Assembly (NCBI GenBank): GCA_964291405.2
Contig: OZ219926.1
Span: 1,952,001-2,016,000, forward strand
Reading direction: 5' to 3'
DNA: 64,000 bases
DNA from: Thermodesulfobacteriota bacterium
GTDB lineage: Bacteria; Desulfobacterota; Binatia; Bin18
This document shows, one piece after another, positions 14,332-19,007 of the stretch. A program made the translations under genes and the position numbers. Every line of letters begins with the position of its first letter. Position 1 is the first letter of the stretch. The notes beneath the pieces were generated by a model. It had not been told where the DNA came from. It worked only from the letters and a program-made list of their open reading frames with translations, and made no database searches.

Positions 14332-16944
14332 TTATTCAACATCCACAATCTGGAAGTTCTGCGAAGCTTGGTGCCATTGCAGAATGACCGTGGTGCCCGG
14401 TTCAGGAAAATCCTCCACCCGCACCCGTTCACTCTCCACGTCCTCCAGAAACTCCTCATCAGAAATACGGATCACTTCCATGAGGTTCGTGTCCGGGGTG
14501 AAGGTTCCATCATCGGCTTCCCAGCCGATTTGCTGGCGGCCCACAAAAGCCCGGACGTTATAGAGACCCGCGTCCAAATGATTCAAATTGAAGGTACCGC
14601 CAAAGCCAAAACCGTGGTCCGGTTTCGGGTTACATTCCTCGGCGCGTGTCACATCGGCGCGTGGCGAGCCATAGGGCACGATGAACGCGGGAACCGCCAG
14701 ACGGTTGCGGCGTTGGTCACGAATCTCGATCCGTACGCCATTGCCATCATCCTGACAGACCCACCCGCGCACCATCACCACCCCACTGCGGATGTCGTCG
14801 TGGCCGGGTTCTTCCAAGACGCCGTGGGGGTCGGGGTCGATTTCGGTATCGGTGTCCGTGTCGGTGTCCGTAACCGGCGGTCGGGTCGTGGGCTCCTCGA
14901 CGGTGACATCCTCGGCAAAGTTGGCGGTCAGATCATAGCTCCCTTCCGTCGTGCCGGTTTGTCCCTCGACTTCCAGCAGATAAAGGCCAGGGGTCACATT
15001 GGCCGCAATGCGGAAATTGTTGTCGGACCCGCCATTATCATTCAATTGGATAGGAGTACCGTCTGGTCCATACAGCGTGGCCTTCACGTCGATCCCACCG
15101 GTACTCTGAAGATATAGCGCCCCTGCGGAGGTGACCTCGAACAGATACCGATTGCGGTCTTTTTCGGCGTTGGTACCTTGAGGGTCGATGGTTTGCCCCG
15201 TCAGAATACGTGTCGGCTGGACACTGGTATCAGTCCCGTCCACGACGGCATCGAAACGGAAACTGATCCCGTAGCTCCCATCTTTAGTGCTGGTCACGTG
15301 GACCAAATGCGGCATGTCCGCTTGTACGGGCACAGCAAACCGGAAATGGGGTGTGCGCGTATCTGTCGCAATCTGGCCGCGTGCCCCATAGAGCGCTCCT
15401 TGTGTTTGGGCAATCGGCGTTGTGGCACCATCTACCCCTCTGACGGTTAGCCAGCCAGCCTTGCCGGGTGTAAAGACAAATACGTCCTGATCCGCTTGAT
15501 TATTGTCTTCAGACCGACGTGCAATCGACAACTCCGTGTCATCATCCAGGACGGTTCCAGTCCAAGCGGGCGCAGGCTCGACCGTCACATCGGTGATTCC
15601 AGCAGTAAACATGGCAACTGCGAATGCCACATCCAGGGTGTAACGACCAGTGATATGGTCTTCTTGGCCCGCGACTCGCAGGGTATAGGCGGTATCCTGT
15701 TGCAATATTGGTACGGCCATTACGAAATTGCCGCTCGTGCCTCCGTCCTCCGCCACGATATTCATGCGATTAGCGACAGGACCCGTTGCTCCGACAAGCG
15801 TCCCTTTTGTATCCGTTTGGCCTGTGGTCTTCAGGGTCAGCAGTCCGGGGGCGGTGACGGTCAGACTATGGGAGACCACGGCTCCCCGGCTGCTGATGTC
15901 GCCCTGTCGGCCCGGCAGGGCGTCCGAGAGGACTCCATGGAACTGAACAACCAAATCGGGGGCGGGTAAGTTTGGATTCCCGTCGATGTTGGGCCGGAGG
16001 GAATTCAGCGTCGGTGTATCTGGGTCCGATTGGACGGTCACAAGAATATACTCGCCTTCCCCGGAGTTAACTGTGGCCCGAAGTTCTAAGCCTTCATGAG
16101 GGTCTTCGCTGATTGCTTCCGCTACCAAAGTAGCCGCTGCCTCTGCCAACCAGCCAGCCACCCCCGTTCCACCGTCACGGTTCGAGTTGATGGTTCCCAG
16201 GTCGCTGATTTCCATATCCGGGGTATTGTCCTTGGCGTTAGTGGAAGAAGTCGTCCCTTGGCCCTTAACCGTTTCCGCGTTTGTCTGCATGGTCCCCGCA
16301 AGTCCCCTTCTGTCGGCGGGAGCAGTTGCCCGTTCCCCCCTATCAGCACTCTCCAGGGCTTTTGAGGCGTTATCGAGGGCCGTGGCAGCCGTCCGCAACG
16401 CTGTGCGGGCATTGTCCTCGGCCTGGCTGGGATTTGGATTCGTCGTCCTATCTCTGAGGGCCGCAGCATCTGTCGCCGCCTTGACGGCAGCATCAGCTGC
16501 GTCAAAGGCTTTCTTCGCCGCACTTTCCTCGGCGATATGGTCGGACGTATAGGTCGTTTTGTAGCGAGCGCGTTCACTGGAACCGTAGCACAGCACCGCA
16601 TCGACCGGTGCCCCATCAGTGGAAAATACCCGCAATTCTCCCGCAGCTAACTGCGGGACGGTAATCTTGGTGTAGCGATAACGTGTGTTTCCCTCCCCAC
16701 TCTCCCCTGTGCCTCGTTTGCTTTCATCATCATCAGTATTCAGCATGGGGGTGATCGTGGCCACGCCCGATCCTGGGGTAATTGCAAAAGTCGCCTCTGG
16801 TGCACTGGCGGTGCCAAAAAAGTCGTTATCCGGCAGCCCTCTACACCCCGGCAGCGCCTGCGTATGCGCCCACACATGTCCACTCAACCCGAGCCACAGG
16901 ACGCCCCCCACGACTCCACCGATGATCTGCTGGTATTTCCTCAT
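14332..16944 (-). CDS. Large secreted/surface protein (870 aa) with PPC-like beta-sandwich repeats
   Basis: ATG 16944 follows GAGGAGG. Signal peptide MRKYQQIIGG..HVWA, Ala-rich insert, repeats of the LxSTGxxDxxGTLYGPDG..NDNGGSDNNFRI type, TDTDTDT linker and a C-terminal beta domain. Confidence 0.8.
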   Translation of the reverse strand: MRKYQQIIGGVVGGVLWLGLSGHVWAHTQALPGCRGLPDNDFFGTASAPEATFAITPGSGVATITPMLNTDDDESKRGTGESGEGNTRYRYTKITVPQLAAGELRVFSTDGAPVDAVLCYGSSERARYKTTYTSDHIAEESAAKKAFDAADAAVKAATDAAALRDRTTNPNPSQAEDNARTALRTAATALDNASKALESADRGERATAPADRRGLAGTMQTNAETVKGQGTTSSTNAKDNTPDMEISDLGTINSNRDGGTGVAGWLAEAAATLVAEAISEDPHEGLELRATVNSGEGEYILVTVQSDPDTPTLNSLRPNIDGNPNLPAPDLVVQFHGVLSDALPGRQGDISSRGAVVSHSLTVTAPGLLTLKTTGQTDTKGTLVGATGPVANRMNIVAEDGGTSGNFVMAVPILQQDTAYTLRVAGQEDHITGRYTLDVAFAVAMFTAGITDVTVEPAPAWTGTVLDDDTELSIARRSEDNNQADQDVFVFTPGKAGWLTVRGVDGATTPIAQTQGALYGARGQIATDTRTPHFRFAVPVQADMPHLVHVTSTKDGSYGISFRFDAVVDGTDTSVQPTRILTGQTIDPQGTNAEKDRNRYLFEVTSAGALYLQSTGGIDVKATLYGPDGTPIQLNDNGGSDNNFRIAANVTPGLYLLEVEGQTGTTEGSYDLTANFAEDVTVEEPTTRPPVTDTDTDTDTEIDPDPHGVLEEPGHDDIRSGVVMVRGWVCQDDGNGVRIEIRDQRRNRLAVPAFIVPYGSPRADVTRAEECNPKPDHGFGFGGTFNLNHLDAGLYNVRAFVGRQQIGWEADDGTFTPDTNLMEVIRISDEEFLEDVESERVRVEDFPEPGTTVILQWHQASQNFQIVDVE

Positions 16945-17654
16945 GCCGTCCTCCTCTCGCGTCCGTTTTGTTTGCCTTGCCCTGCCTTGCCTGGCCCTGT
17001 TTCGCCATGCCATGCCCCTGCCGCGCCTTGCCTCGCCCCGCCCCGCCCAGAACCGTTGACTGGTGCAATACTCACCAGCGCAAACCGGCCAAAATCTCCG
17101 GACTTCTCCGGCCGCCAATCCCCGAGCCCGATGCGGCGCCCCGCGATGGTCAGCCACTGTTCCAGTTGAGAGGCGTCTACTAACTCGTCGTCCGCCTCTA
17201 CCACAAACGTCACGCCCCACTCGTCAAACTTGGCGCGCGTGCGCGGAATGCGGTTACGTTGAATGACCACATTGGTAGTGAACTGCACGGTCTTGCCCAG
17301 TTCTTCCATTGTGGTCCCGAGGGTGCGGTCATAGGAGAATTCTTCAATCTCCTCGACCAACAAGCCTTCTCTCACCTGCGGCCCCTGCTTGAGCTTGCGG
17401 GCCGCCGTCTCGATGCATGAGCGCAGCGCTGCGGCGGGGATTGTCGGGATGCCGCTCTTATCGAGCCACAGGCTCGTCTGACACTCCAATTCCTGCAACC
17501 GCTCCTCATCATGAATGGTGCGATCACGGCCGCGCCTCTTGGCAATCTCGTCCTTCTCCTTGTTGGCCGGGGAGCGTTTGTCGAGGCCCGCTTGACTATT
17601 GTGCATAATCAGCGGTCGCCGGCCGTCCAGACATATCCGGTAACGCTGCATCAT
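16941..17654 (-). CDS. Solo Cas7/RAMP-like protein
   Basis: N-terminal strand YRICLDGRRPLIMHN, PTIPAAALRSCIETAA (like the RAMP PxIPxSSxKG motif) and C-terminal Gly-rich loop IGLGDWRPEKSGDFGRF. RBS AGAGGAG. The CDS is confident; the fold is inferred. Confidence 0.7.
   Translation of the reverse strand: MMQRYRICLDGRRPLIMHNSQAGLDKRSPANKEKDEIAKRRGRDRTIHDEERLQELECQTSLWLDKSGIPTIPAAALRSCIETAARKLKQGPQVREGLLVEEIEEFSYDRTLGTTMEELGKTVQFTTNVVIQRNRIPRTRAKFDEWGVTFVVEADDELVDASQLEQWLTIAGRRIGLGDWRPEKSGDFGRFALVSIAPVNGSGRGGARQGAAGAWHGETGPGKAGQGKQNGRERRTA
16972..17047 (-). repeat. Phased (GGC-NN) pentamer array, 14 units; candidate guide RNA
   Basis: Minus strand reads GGC-GG GGC-GG GGC-GA GGC-AA GGC-GC GGC-AG (G) GGC-AT GGC-AT GGC-GA AAC-AG GGC-CA GGC-AA GGC-AG GGC-AA GGC-AA. 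Confidence 0.85.
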
Positions 17655-17914
17655 CCGCGTCTCCTCTTCACGTCGAGAGTCCCGGCGGGGTGCCGGGCCG
17701 TGTCAACTGCACAACCGTGAGGTAATGTCTCACTTTGAAGCTTATGACCAGAAAAAATGGGGCAGTCCGCCCTCTCCCCAGCTCCCTCTCAGGCATCGTG
17801 TTCTCCTCTCGGCTTCGAGCCCACGCGTTCGTCCGCTGATGACGAATGTTTATGTTCTCTTTTACAATGTCTTATAGATATAGTTTTGCTTATAAATCAC
17901 GTCTGGAAGACGCT

Positions 17915-17944
17915 ATACTATTACTGATAAAGATATATTGTCAA
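17915..17944 (-). promoter_or_regulatory. Putative sigma70 promoter for the Cas7-like/secreted-protein operon
   Basis: TTGACA-18 nt-TAGTAT on the minus strand within an AT-rich stretch (about 17845-17950). Confidence 0.5.
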
Positions 17945-18107
17945 TAAACTATCCCCATCAGACTGTTCGCCTAACATAGTGGTCTATCCATACTGGTCTT
18001 GAACCGCGAGGCGGGTATGAATGACCGAGAGCTGTTAGGGGGTGTCGTCAGTTAAGGAGGATCACCGAAGCGGCGAGGTAAATGGCGCCGAGGAAGCTGC
18101 TGGCGCG

Positions 18108-18299
18108 TTTACCCCACGCGAGGTTCGGAAGCAGGCGAACCTGACGCAAGCTCAGATGGCACCACTGATGGGCATGAGCCTGTCCGGCTACCGGAAATGG
18201 GAACAGGGGACACGGCGGGTCAGCGGCCCGGCCGCTACCCTGCTGCGTGTGCTCGAAAGGGAGCCGGAGGCGGTCAAGCGTGCATTGCTTGGCTCATAA
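18108..18299 (+). pseudogene. 3' half of a HigA/YiaG-type XRE HTH antitoxin
   Basis: TPREVRKQANLTQAQMAPLMGMSLSGYRKWEQGTRRVSGPAATLLRVLEREPEAVKRAL, lacking its native N-terminus. It could be expressed from GTG 18042. Confidence 0.75.
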
Positions 18300-18384
18300 G
18301 GACGGCTGACCGGGACCATCTGATACAAAACCGGGATATAAATCCTCATTATGAGAAGAGGCCATAGTAGCTATTACAGCTCTC

Positions 18385-18636
18385 ATGAAAGAAATGGCTG
18401 CCAGGGACGCCAAGAACCGCTTTAGCTATTTGCTGGATGCCGTGCAGAGGGCGCCCGTGCGTGTGACCAGGAAAGGCAGAGCGGTCGGCGTGATGATGTC
18501 GGTGCAACACTATGAGCGCCTTCGCGGCGCTGCCTGGGAACGTCTGACGATGACGATGGACGCTTTGGGAGAGGAGGCATCCGCGAGCGGCTTGACGGAG
18601 GCCAAGCTCAAGGCGCTTCTCGCGGATAAGAACTGA
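18385..18636 (+). CDS. Phd/YefM family antitoxin (orphan)
   Basis: AARDAKNRFSYLLDAVQRAPVRVTRKGRAVGV. Confidence 0.88.
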   Translation: MKEMAARDAKNRFSYLLDAVQRAPVRVTRKGRAVGVMMSVQHYERLRGAAWERLTMTMDALGEEASASGLTEAKLKALLADKN

Positions 18637-18657
18637 GACTATCGTTCCCGACACCAA

Positions 18658-18693
18658 TTAGTCCACAATACGTACCTCGTGCCCGCTGCATAC
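18658..18693 (-). repeat. Duplicate of the 3' end of the EthD gene (direct repeat with 19493-19528)
   Basis: CCACAATACG(T/C)ACCTCGTGCCCGCTGCATAC at 18663-18693 and 19498-19528, encoding VCSGHEVRIVD* vs VCSGHEVRIVG*. Confidence 0.85.
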
Positions 18694-18761
18694 GCCTGTA
18701 AGGTCATTGTCCCACAAGGCACTACGGTCTATTGTAGCCGTAGTGGTTCACCTTGAGGGAT

Positions 18762-19007
18762 ATGATGCACGAGGTTCAATTACGCGACGCAAAGGCTAGA
18801 CTCTCAGCGCTGGTAGAAGGTGCGGCCCATGGAGAGACGACGATCATCACTCGCTACGGCAAACCTCGGGCCGTCATCCTTGGAATCGATGAGTGGAATC
18901 GTCTCTGCAAAGTGCCGTCCTTTGGCCGATTGCTGCTCTCTGCACCACTGGAGGACGGGGACCTGCCGCCGCGTGACATGAGCCCGTCACGGGACGCGGC
19001 ACTCTAG
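18762..19007 (+). CDS. Phd/YefM family antitoxin (VapB role)
   Basis: VQLRDAKARLSALVEGAAHGETTIITRYGKPRAV, upstream of a PIN toxin. Confidence 0.88.
   Translation: MMHEVQLRDAKARLSALVEGAAHGETTIITRYGKPRAVILGIDEWNRLCKVPSFGRLLLSAPLEDGDLPPRDMSPSRDAAL

What the first reader, a model, noticed from the sequence alone, without database searches (positions are those of the whole stretch)
16972..17047. Phased GGC-NN pentamer array: constant trinucleotide, variable dinucleotide (candidate gapped guide code)
Seen on the gene strand: 14 GGC units at 5-nt period with NN = GG,GG,GA,AA,GC,AG,AT,AT,GA,(AG),CA,AA,AG,AA,AA. One degenerate unit (AAC-AG) keeps the phase and there is one 1-nt slip. A period of 5 does not fit codon structure, and the fixed-GGC/variable-NN pattern is unlike a slippage microsatellite. 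The array begins about 30 nt after the conserved GRF motif, and the ORF reads through it as a low-complexity tail. Inference: each GGC binds one Cas7-like subunit and the NN pairs jointly specify a nucleic-acid target. A limited by-eye scan found no target in this window.
Basis: partly seen in the sequence, partly recalled or inferred. Interest (0 to 1): 0.88.

Follow-up and report, generated by a model that had tools for sequence, protein, structure and literature searches.

The report
VIPR guide RNA beside Vipr gene
The five-base GGC-NN repeat is the guide RNA of a VIPR system, a recently described phage-derived cousin of CRISPR in which a small Cas7-like protein coats the repeat and reads DNA through the variable base pairs; this copy is a new, stripped-down example in a Binatia-like bacterium, not a new kind of system.

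Summary
In detail: 15 pentamers (14 GGC-NN, one AAC-AG, one 6-nt unit) on the minus strand at 17047-16972. It is the only such array in the 4.95-Mb genome.

The ORF carrying it (16941-17654, minus strand) is a Vipr protein. A family profile hits PDB 36pp 'SUSP1 Vipr protein' at E=1e-50. The residues reported to grip GGY are conserved. The predicted fold is Cas7/Csm3-like.

In 68 of 81 related loci from several phyla, a GGY-NN array starts within 250 nt of the same GRF motif, usually after the stop codon. GGY is about 95% conserved and NN is near-random. The array is therefore a nucleotide-level element. The 40-aa peptide tail is an accident of a lost stop.

This matches VIPR systems (bioRxiv 10.64898/2026.04.26.720920 and .720927): 9-16 YNNGG repeats, one Vipr protomer per repeat, NN reading dsDNA with a 1-nt skip.

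Local peculiarities: no accessory (vap) gene, a single guide, an ORF that reads through the guide, and no target found.

Verdict: new member of a known kind.

The parts
17064..17654 (-). vipr gene core (codons 1-197), a minimal RAMP / Cas7-like protein. The annotatable ORF continues to 16941 because no stop codon precedes the array.
   Evidence: phrog_4652 E=1.5e-29 over residues 2-193. Profile hit to PDB 36pp_D 'SUSP1 Vipr protein' E=1e-50; single-sequence E=1.7e-11. AF2 pLDDT 97.8. Best Foldseek hits are Csm3 chains, E about 1e-5, TM 0.5. dN/dS 0.10 against the 92%-identical orthologue L012.
16972..17047 (-). vrRNA repeat tract: 15 pentamers (14 GGC-NN, one AAC-AG, one 6-nt unit). The NN are the presumed guide positions.
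   Evidence: Homologous arrays lie at the same place in 68 of 81 related loci. GGY is 94/96/99% conserved and NN near-random.
16945..16971 (-). Possible vrRNA 3' tail. It also holds the ribosome-binding region (GGAGGA) of the downstream gene. The assignment is uncertain.
   Evidence: Published vrRNAs carry an invariant 3' tail. Here the stretch is almost identical in L012 but shows no significant fold (z -0.26). It lacks the AGGGA-type ending seen in most relatives.
16941..17063 (-). C-terminal 40-codon extension of the ORF, translated from the linker and the guide. It is a by-product, not part of the protein family.
   Evidence: Most homologues are 197-202 aa. In L003-L007 and L011 a stop lies before or inside the array.
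17915..17944 (-). Sigma-70-like promoter match about 260 nt upstream of the vipr start (weak, consensus only).
   Evidence: TTGACA, 16-18 nt spacer, 10 of 12 matches. 3 sites were found in the region against a mean of 0.7 in shuffles.

Best explanation
Window 16941-17654 (minus strand) is a minimal VIPR (Viral Interference Programmable Repeat) locus: a vipr gene followed at once by a single vrRNA. By homology with the characterised SUSP1 and P. fulva systems, the transcript's GGC-NN tract is coated by Vipr protomers, one per pentamer. The protomers flip out and hold each GGY (inferred from conserved H18, R140, D179, W180, R181) and present the 15 NN dinucleotides as a gapped guide. That guide pairs with double-stranded DNA reading two bases and skipping one, which silences transcription of a competing mobile element. 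In this genome the system has no accessory (vap) gene. The stop codon of vipr has been lost, so the ORF runs through the guide and ends in an ATGA overlap with the next gene. Shown here: family membership, fold, the array, its conservation at nucleotide level, and purifying selection. Inferred: RNA expression and processing, filament assembly, DNA targeting, and the biological target.
For: (1) Protein. An 87-sequence profile hits PDB 36pp_D 'SUSP1 Vipr protein' at E=1e-50 over 2-194 vs 2-191. The single sequence gives E=1.7e-11. In that alignment SUSP1 H17, R138, D177, W178 and R179 align with H18, R140, D179, W180 and R181. The cryo-EM paper reports those SUSP1 residues as gripping G1, G2 and Y3. 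R140 is invariant and D179 and R181 are at least 90% conserved in the 87 sequences. The AF2 model has pLDDT 97.8 and pTM 0.91. The top Foldseek PDB matches are Cas7-family Csm3 chains (9g9f_D E=7.8e-6, TM 0.50).
(2) RNA. 15 GGY-NN units lie within the published 9-16 range. It is the only such array in the genome.
(3) Linkage. In 68 of 81 loci (the window plus 80 from Binatia, Dehalococcoidia/Chloroflexota, Alphaproteobacteria, Vicinamibacterales and Gammaproteobacteria MAGs) an array starts within 250 nt after the GRF motif. 5 more loci have arrays only upstream. The background is 3 chains in 1.10 Mb.
(4) In 156 strict runs, positions 1-3 are G 94%, G 96% and C/T 99%. Position 4 is A41/G27/T22/C10 and position 5 is near-uniform. 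Run lengths peak at 13-17 units.
(5) The array is independent of reading frame. It lies after the stop in L004-L006 and L011, has a stop inside it in L003, and is in frame in the window, L002 and L008.
(6) Selection. The vipr core has dN/dS 0.104 with dS 0.418 against L012. The 120 nt holding the array differ at 8 gapless columns, which I read as about 5 events, far below the synonymous rate. Contigs from 4 runs of 4 studies cover the array with 0 other letters; one of these runs may be the window's own source.
(7) The tract has no stable fold (z -0.26), as expected for a protein-coated single strand.
(8) Nucleotide homology among Binatia loci starts at the gene start and ends with the array.
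Against: [quoted passage not shown] 0 of 28 genus genomes match at up to 3 mismatches. Exact scans of IMG/VR and of metagenome contigs gave 0. Six IMG/VR hits to an 18-base sub-pattern match only 1-3 of the 10 remaining positions. No vap gene is present: the HNH-like ORF seen in 61 of 81 loci (upstream of vipr in 60) is absent from the window and from all 10 Binatia-titled loci. The guide has one degenerate unit (AAC) and one 6-nt unit. It lacks the AGGGA-type 3' end common in relatives, has no recognisable structured tail and no terminator-like site after it. The ORF runs through the guide, an arrangement not mentioned in the parts of the papers that I read. Whether ribosomes interfere with guide maturation is unknown.
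Confidence: 0.88

Rival explanations
1. It is a decaying or domesticated relic of a VIPR system. The gene and array descend from VIPR but no longer guide anything. The guide is degenerate, the nuclease partner is lost, and the locus persists by inertia or in some other role.
For: No vap gene is present. The array has a slip and a degenerate unit. The stop codon is lost, so the guide is translated. There is no typical 3' end, tail fold or terminator. No target was found in any collection searched. The setting is chromosomal, among metabolic genes and antitoxin genes rather than in a recognisable prophage.
Against: The vipr core is under purifying selection (dN/dS 0.10 at dS 0.42). The array changes about ten-fold more slowly than synonymous sites. 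All five GGY-contact residues are kept. The 6-nt unit is shared by Binatia loci whose arrays lie outside the ORF, so it appears to be tolerated. [quoted passage not shown] Failure to find a target in incomplete collections, by exact or near-exact matching, is weak evidence.
Confidence: 0.08
2. It is a cis-acting protein-binding site on the mRNA, in the manner of TRAP, which binds 11 (G/U)AG triplets spaced by 2-3 nt (recalled knowledge). Binding would control translation of the downstream 870-aa secreted protein or of vipr itself, rather than providing a trans-acting guide.
For: The geometry of a triplet plus a 2-nt spacer is the same. The array ends about 15 nt before the GGAGGA ribosome-binding region, and the ORF stop overlaps the next start codon. 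A homologous downstream gene follows the array in L015 and L016.
Against: The downstream gene is not conserved across the 81 loci; no neighbour family other than the HNH-like ORF recurs in more than 11 loci. Many loci carry 2-7 successive arrays ending in terminator-like hairpins with no gene attached. The partner protein is a Vipr homologue with an established guide function.
Confidence: 0.03
3. It is an ordinary slippage microsatellite or a low-complexity coding tail with no nucleotide-level function.
For: The ORF is open through it, and the translated tail is G/A/R/Q-rich low complexity. Unit number varies between loci.
Against: The array is conserved at the same position across several phyla, whether in frame, out of frame or after a stop. 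There is strong positional conservation of GGY with free NN, which slippage of a single unit does not produce. It is unique in the genome.
Confidence: 0.01

Closest known systems
VIPR type II systems of Escherichia phage SUSP1 and a Pseudomonas fulva prophage (bioRxiv 10.64898/2026.04.26.720920; cryo-EM 10.64898/2026.04.26.720927; PDB 36pp)
   Same: A Vipr protein of about 200 aa with an RRM core, G-loop (GxGDWRP...GRF) and thumb. The guide consists of GGY-NN pentamers (15 here, 9-16 published) next to the gene. The GGY-contact residues are conserved.
   Different: Only about 26% identity at the best phage matches. No vap1 gene. One guide rather than four. No pseudoknot-like tail detected. Chromosomal rather than phage context. 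The guide lies inside the extended vipr ORF.
Nuclease-associated VIPR types (types III-V in the paper; HNH-type Vap mentioned in the legend of fig. S21; figures and supplements not seen)
   Same: The window's closest relatives outside Binatia carry a small CxxC...HH...CxxCH ORF directly upstream of vipr in 60 of 81 loci (61 with a match anywhere; weak Pfam HNH, E=0.045, below cut-off). Many of them have a single vrRNA. The paper says types III and V sit in defence islands and include single-vrRNA systems.
   Different: The window and all 10 Binatia-titled loci lack this ORF. I could not assign a type because the classification data (fig. 5A, S16, data S4) were not readable.
Class 1 CRISPR backbone subunits (Cas7: Csm3/Cmr4, type VII Cas7)
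   Same: Same fold class (Foldseek E about 1e-5, TM about 0.5 to Csm3 chains). One subunit per repeat of the guide, with a thumb that flips bases periodically (paper text).
   Different: No CRISPR array or other cas genes. Period 5 with three sequence-specific flipped bases (GGY), rather than period 6 with one flipped base. Two bases are read per unit and one is skipped on the target. The guide is genome-encoded, not acquired.
TRAP (trp RNA-binding attenuation protein) binding sites of Bacillus (recalled knowledge, not tested)
   Same: RNA made of conserved triplets separated by 2-nt non-conserved spacers and bound by one protein subunit per triplet.
   Different: Unrelated protein fold, a closed 11-mer ring, GAG/UAG triplets, and spacers that carry no information. 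No TRAP homologue was sought or seen here.

Membership tests
VIPR system | Vipr protein: a minimal RAMP homologous to characterised Vipr | tested here: met
   Profile vs PDB 36pp_D 'SUSP1 Vipr protein' E=1e-50. Single sequence E=1.7e-11, residues 5-194 vs 4-188. phrog_4652 E=1.5e-29.
VIPR system | RAMP fold with G-loop and thumb | tested here: met
   AF2 pLDDT 97.8. Foldseek best hits are Csm3/Cas7 chains, E 8e-6 to 4e-4. G-loop GLGDWRPEKSGDFGRF at residues 176-191. The Foldseek PDB copy predates the Vipr entries, so Vipr itself could not appear there.
VIPR system | Residues that recognise GGY (SUSP1 H17, R138, D177, W178, R179) | tested here: met
   They align with H18, R140, D179, W180 and R181 (alignment, residue numbers counted by me; roles). 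SUSP1 K33 aligns with D35, which is not conserved, though K34 is adjacent. R39 aligns with R41 and K82 with R86.
VIPR system | vrRNA: 9-16 tandem YNNGG/GGYNN units next to vipr | tested here: met
   15 units at 17047-16972, starting 30 nt after the GRF codons.
VIPR system | GGY conserved and NN variable among homologous loci | tested here: met
   156 runs from 64 of 79 non-duplicate loci: G 94%, G 96%, Y 99%, and positions 4 and 5 variable. Among 10 close Vicinamibacterales copies (11 aligned, L080 dropped) the contrast is modest: GGY 6.4% vs NN 10.5% pairwise difference.
VIPR system | Invariant structured 3' tail on the vrRNA | tested here: inconclusive
   No significant fold (z -0.26) and no Rfam match. 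The 27 nt after the array are nearly identical in L012 but also serve as the next gene's ribosome-binding region.
VIPR system | Accessory vap gene (typical, not universal) | tested here: not met
   tblastn with the HNH-like ORF of L090 found it in 61 of 81 loci but not in the window. The paper notes stand-alone vipr genes, so this does not exclude membership.
VIPR system | vrRNA expressed, processed and bound by Vipr | not testable with these tools
   No RNA run was listed for this stretch. See Tried and rejected.
VIPR system | Natural target matching at least 80% of NN under the 1-nt skip rule; no self-target | tested here: inconclusive
   There is no self-target: 19/28 = 68% at best, below shuffles, as the paper reports for its systems. 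No external target was found, but only exact or at most 3-mismatch searches were possible.
CRISPR-Cas class 1 | CRISPR repeat-spacer array and cas gene set | tested here: not met
   No other cas-like family appears in Pfam, NCBIfam or PADLOC scans of the two genes or of the 10 neighbouring ORFs scanned against Pfam only. The only tandem repeat nearby is the pentamer array.

The most novel reading that the evidence does not exclude
In this Binatia lineage the guide has become part of its effector's own coding sequence. Because vipr lost its stop, ribosomes must cross the GGC-NN tract to finish Vipr and, through the ATGA overlap, to start the downstream 870-aa secreted protein. Vipr coating of its own mRNA would then block both. 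This would create an autoregulatory loop in which the same 76 nt act as guide, as coding sequence and as a translational switch for a host gene. A chromosomally domesticated, vap-less VIPR would thus be used for host gene control rather than for conflict between phages.
Probability: 0.08. Interest if true: 0.55.

Novelty: new member of a known kind. Interest (0 to 1): 0.3.

Why it matters
VIPR was described only in 2026, as a second, possibly older logic of RNA-guided DNA recognition. This locus shows the system in a chromosomal setting in a Binatia-like genome. Its near relatives (44-92% protein identity) are spread across at least five bacterial lineages. It also shows the system reduced to its bare minimum: one small protein and one guide, with no accessory gene. 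That makes it a compact natural test case for what Vipr plus one vrRNA can do alone. The related loci gathered here (up to 7 arrays in a row, an HNH-like partner, multi-copy 1-kb cassettes) extend the natural catalogue of guide architectures. For the scan, the result is mainly a calibration. A reader working from raw sequence recovered a real, recently published mechanism.

Tried and rejected
Before the PDB hit I considered five other ideas.
- A TRAP-like triplet-plus-spacer RNA site.
- A CsrA-type sponge RNA.
- A G-quadruplex or R-loop-forming tract.
- A phage pac/cos or iteron DNA site.
- A type III toxin-antitoxin repeat RNA.
All were dropped once the adjacent protein proved to be a Vipr homologue and the papers were read.

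Rfam gave nothing relevant in the window (4 matches, all far below gathering scores). It gave nothing in 8 multi-array loci, so I found no hammerhead-interspersed arrays.

Neighbour-gene clustering over 81 loci at first seemed to show no conserved neighbour. I had misread family 2 (63 loci) as an overlapping-frame artefact. One search showed it to be the HNH-like ORF.

Target searches found nothing convincing.
- Own genome.
- 28 genus genomes.
- IMG/VR.
- Metagenome contigs.
- 140 sister guides against the own genome plus all loci showed no excess over shuffles: 14 real vs 17 shuffled at 0.8 or more.
The collection scans accept only exact patterns, so targets at 80-95% NN match would have been missed.

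Expression: no RNA holder was listed among the 24 runs, which is no evidence either way. The contigs laid cannot show RNA ends.

Supplementary data of the VIPR papers (type tables, data S3/S4, figures) could not be seen. They may already list this clade, its type and its targets.

Full report
**1. The observation**

On the minus strand, 17047 to 16972 reads as 15 five-base units. Fourteen are GGC-NN. One is AAC-AG (17001-16997). One unit carries an extra G (17017).

Tandem Repeats Finder sees period 5, 13 copies, score 39.

The array is unique in its genome. A strict-phase scan (at least 8 of 15 phased GGC) of both strands of the 4.95-Mb assembly returned this locus alone. A slip-tolerant GGY caller also returned it alone.

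The ORF 16941-17654 (minus strand, 237 aa) reads through the array. Its TGA overlaps the ATG of the next ORF, which encodes 870 aa with an N-terminal hydrophobic segment that I read as a signal peptide.

**2. The array is a nucleotide element, not a peptide**

Pfam, NCBIfam and PADLOC do not recognise the 237-aa protein. PHROGs places residues 2-193 in phrog_4652, of unknown function, at E=1.5e-29.

The word-index search found 904 relatives. Most of the 120 listed are 197-202 aa long, so the last 40 residues are not part of the family.

Among 41 genomes searched (G000 plus 40 relatives), 9 had the gene. In L001-L008 a GGC/GGT-NN array follows the GRF motif whatever the reading frame.
- After a stop codon: L004, L005, L006.
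- With a stop inside the array: L003.
- In frame: the window, L002, L008.

A scan of the species-representative genome collection returned 80 more loci. Their record titles name MAGs of Candidatus Binatia, Dehalococcoidia/Chloroflexota, Alphaproteobacteria, Vicinamibacterales and Gammaproteobacteria, at 44-92% protein identity.

Across the 81 loci:
- In 68, an array starts within 250 nt after the GRF motif.
- In 5, arrays lie only upstream.
- In 7, my caller found none.
- In 1, the motif was not found.
- More than 2.5 kb from the gene there were 3 chains in 1.10 Mb.

In 156 strict runs the five positions read as follows:
- Position 1: G 94%.
- Position 2: G 96%.
- Position 3: C 80% / T 19%.
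- Position 4: A41 / G27 / T22 / C10.
- Position 5: near-uniform.
Run lengths peak at 13-17 units.

Of the 68 loci with a downstream array, 44 carry 2-7 arrays in series within 1.5 kb. The examples printed show short linkers such as GGACATCAA between arrays, and some series end in terminator-like hairpins.

**3. What it is**

A profile of 87 diverse homologues hits one solved structure, PDB 36pp chain D, 'SUSP1 Vipr protein', at E=1e-50. The single sequence gives E=1.7e-11.

A literature search found three 2026 preprints on VIPR, Viral Interference Programmable Repeat. What I read of each:
- 10.64898/2026.04.26.720920: abstract, all Results, Discussion, four Methods sections and legend passages.
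- 10.64898/2026.04.26.720927: abstract and all Results.
- 10.64898/2026.10.15.759431: abstract, Methods section 17 and Discussion.
I saw no figures or supplements.

They report the following.
- Vipr is a minimal, early-branching RAMP.
- vrRNAs consist of 9-16 YNNGG repeats, with conserved GGY and hypervariable NN, plus a 3' tail.
- One Vipr protomer binds per repeat in a helical filament.
- H17, D177, R138, W178 and R179 grip G1, G2 and Y3.
- The NN pair with double-stranded DNA while every third target base is skipped.
- The outcome is transcriptional silencing of competing phages and satellites.

In the window's protein these five residues align with H18, R140, D179, W180 and R181. The AlphaFold2 model is confident (pLDDT 97.8). 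Its best PDB fold matches are Csm3/Cas7 chains (E about 1e-5, TM about 0.5). That Foldseek library predates the Vipr entries.

**4. Is this copy alive?**

Evidence that it is:
- Against the 92%-identical orthologue L012, the vipr core has dN/dS 0.104 at dS 0.418.
- The 120 nt holding the array differ at only 8 gapless columns. I read these as about 5 events, including a pair of compensating single-base indels that move the 6-nt unit by one repeat.
- Contigs from four runs of four studies cover the array with no differing letters; one may be the source sample.
- The tract has no stable fold (z -0.26).
- The 6-nt unit is shared by Binatia loci whose arrays lie outside the ORF.

Evidence that it may not be:
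- No accessory gene is present. A small CxxC...HH...CxxCH ORF has a weak Pfam HNH match (E=0.045, below cut-off). It was found in 61 of 81 loci, directly upstream of vipr in 60, but not in the window or any of the 10 Binatia-titled loci.
- There is no structured tail and no terminator after the array.
- The AGGGA-type 3' end common in relatives is missing.

**5. Target**

I used the published conversion, in which each GGY becomes one wildcard base.
- The own genome gives at best 19 of 28 informative positions, below 30 shuffled guides at 20-22. There is no self-target, as the paper also reports for its systems.
- None of 28 genus genomes matches at up to 3 mismatches.
- Exact scans of IMG/VR and of metagenome contigs gave nothing.
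- Six IMG/VR hits to the 3' 18-base sub-pattern fail in the 5' half.
- 140 sister guides scanned against the own genome and all loci show no excess over shuffles.
The target is unknown. The searches could not tolerate the 80% match level that the authors used.

**6. Context**

The locus sits in a chromosomal stretch. It holds luciferase-like monooxygenases, an MFS transporter and an SDR (short-chain dehydrogenase). Upstream of vipr there is also a small cluster of antitoxin-type genes: one MqsA/HTH and two Phd/YefM.

Among Binatia loci, nucleotide homology begins at the vipr start and ends with the array. Gene plus guide therefore behave as one cassette.

Distant homologues in cultured phages (129 records, all below 60% identity, mostly Felixounavirus-like) lie in early or replication regions.

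**7. Verdict**

The locus is a new member of a known kind.

It has three local peculiarities: it is vap-less, it has a single guide, and the guide lies inside the ORF, with an ATGA overlap onto a secreted-protein gene. These allow one speculative novel reading, that Vipr regulates its own and the neighbour's translation. I rate that at about 8%.

Interest is modest (0.3). The finding's main value is as a correct blind rediscovery and as a minimal natural VIPR.

Noticed in passing
L054:6600-7053; L056:6597-7100; L031:6601-7282; L070:6604-7226; L074:6629-6849: Dehalococcoidia and gammaproteobacterial relatives carry 3-7 successive GGY-NN arrays of 12-17 units downstream of vipr. Short linkers (for example GGACATCAA) or hairpins separate them, and some series end in a terminator-like hairpin. 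Rfam found no ribozyme between them.
   Followed up: partly
L090:5705-6004 and the same position in 59 other loci: A small ORF of about 100 aa with CxxC...HH...CxxCH lies directly upstream of vipr and overlaps its start in 60 of 81 loci. The Pfam HNH match is weak (E=0.045, below cut-off). It is probably the nuclease-type Vap. It is absent from the window and from all Binatia-titled loci.
   Followed up: partly
L073, L075, L077, L078, L080 (contigs of one Vicinamibacterales MAG); L084:6001-8260; L063: The HNH-vipr-vrRNA unit of about 1.03 kb occurs at least 5 times in one genome. It occurs twice in tandem within L084 and L063. Similarity between copies ends about 20-60 nt after the array. This suggests that the cassette itself is duplicated or mobile.
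   Followed up: partly
L039:5480-5696; L040:5531-5696; L049:5324-5974; L051:5864-5973; L058:5618-5713: In five loci the arrays lie only upstream of vipr, on the gene strand, and none follows the gene.
   Followed up: no
window 17828-18039 and 18036-18110: The non-coding stretch upstream of vipr matches short segments in other Binatia loci at 80-87% identity (L015, L016 and L018; L037 twice, in both orientations). It looks like a small dispersed repeat.
   Followed up: no
window 14335-16944 (-): This 870-aa ORF has an N-terminal hydrophobic segment that looks like a signal peptide and no family match (only sub-threshold hits to a galactose-binding-like domain and a T9SS tail). Its start codon overlaps the stop of the extended vipr ORF. 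A homologous gene follows the array in L015 and L016.
   Followed up: partly
window 18042-19007 (+): Three small antitoxin-type genes lie in a row: one MqsA/HTH_3-like and two Phd/YefM. None of the 10 neighbouring ORFs I scanned was a toxin partner.
   Followed up: no
window 17004-17053 in runs X4, X6, X9: Other contigs in the same metagenomes match only the 5' part of the array and then diverge (loose ends at 16987-17026). Sister guides from related organisms therefore seem to share the first 5-6 NN units and differ in the rest, as also seen between the window and L004/L011.
   Followed up: partly
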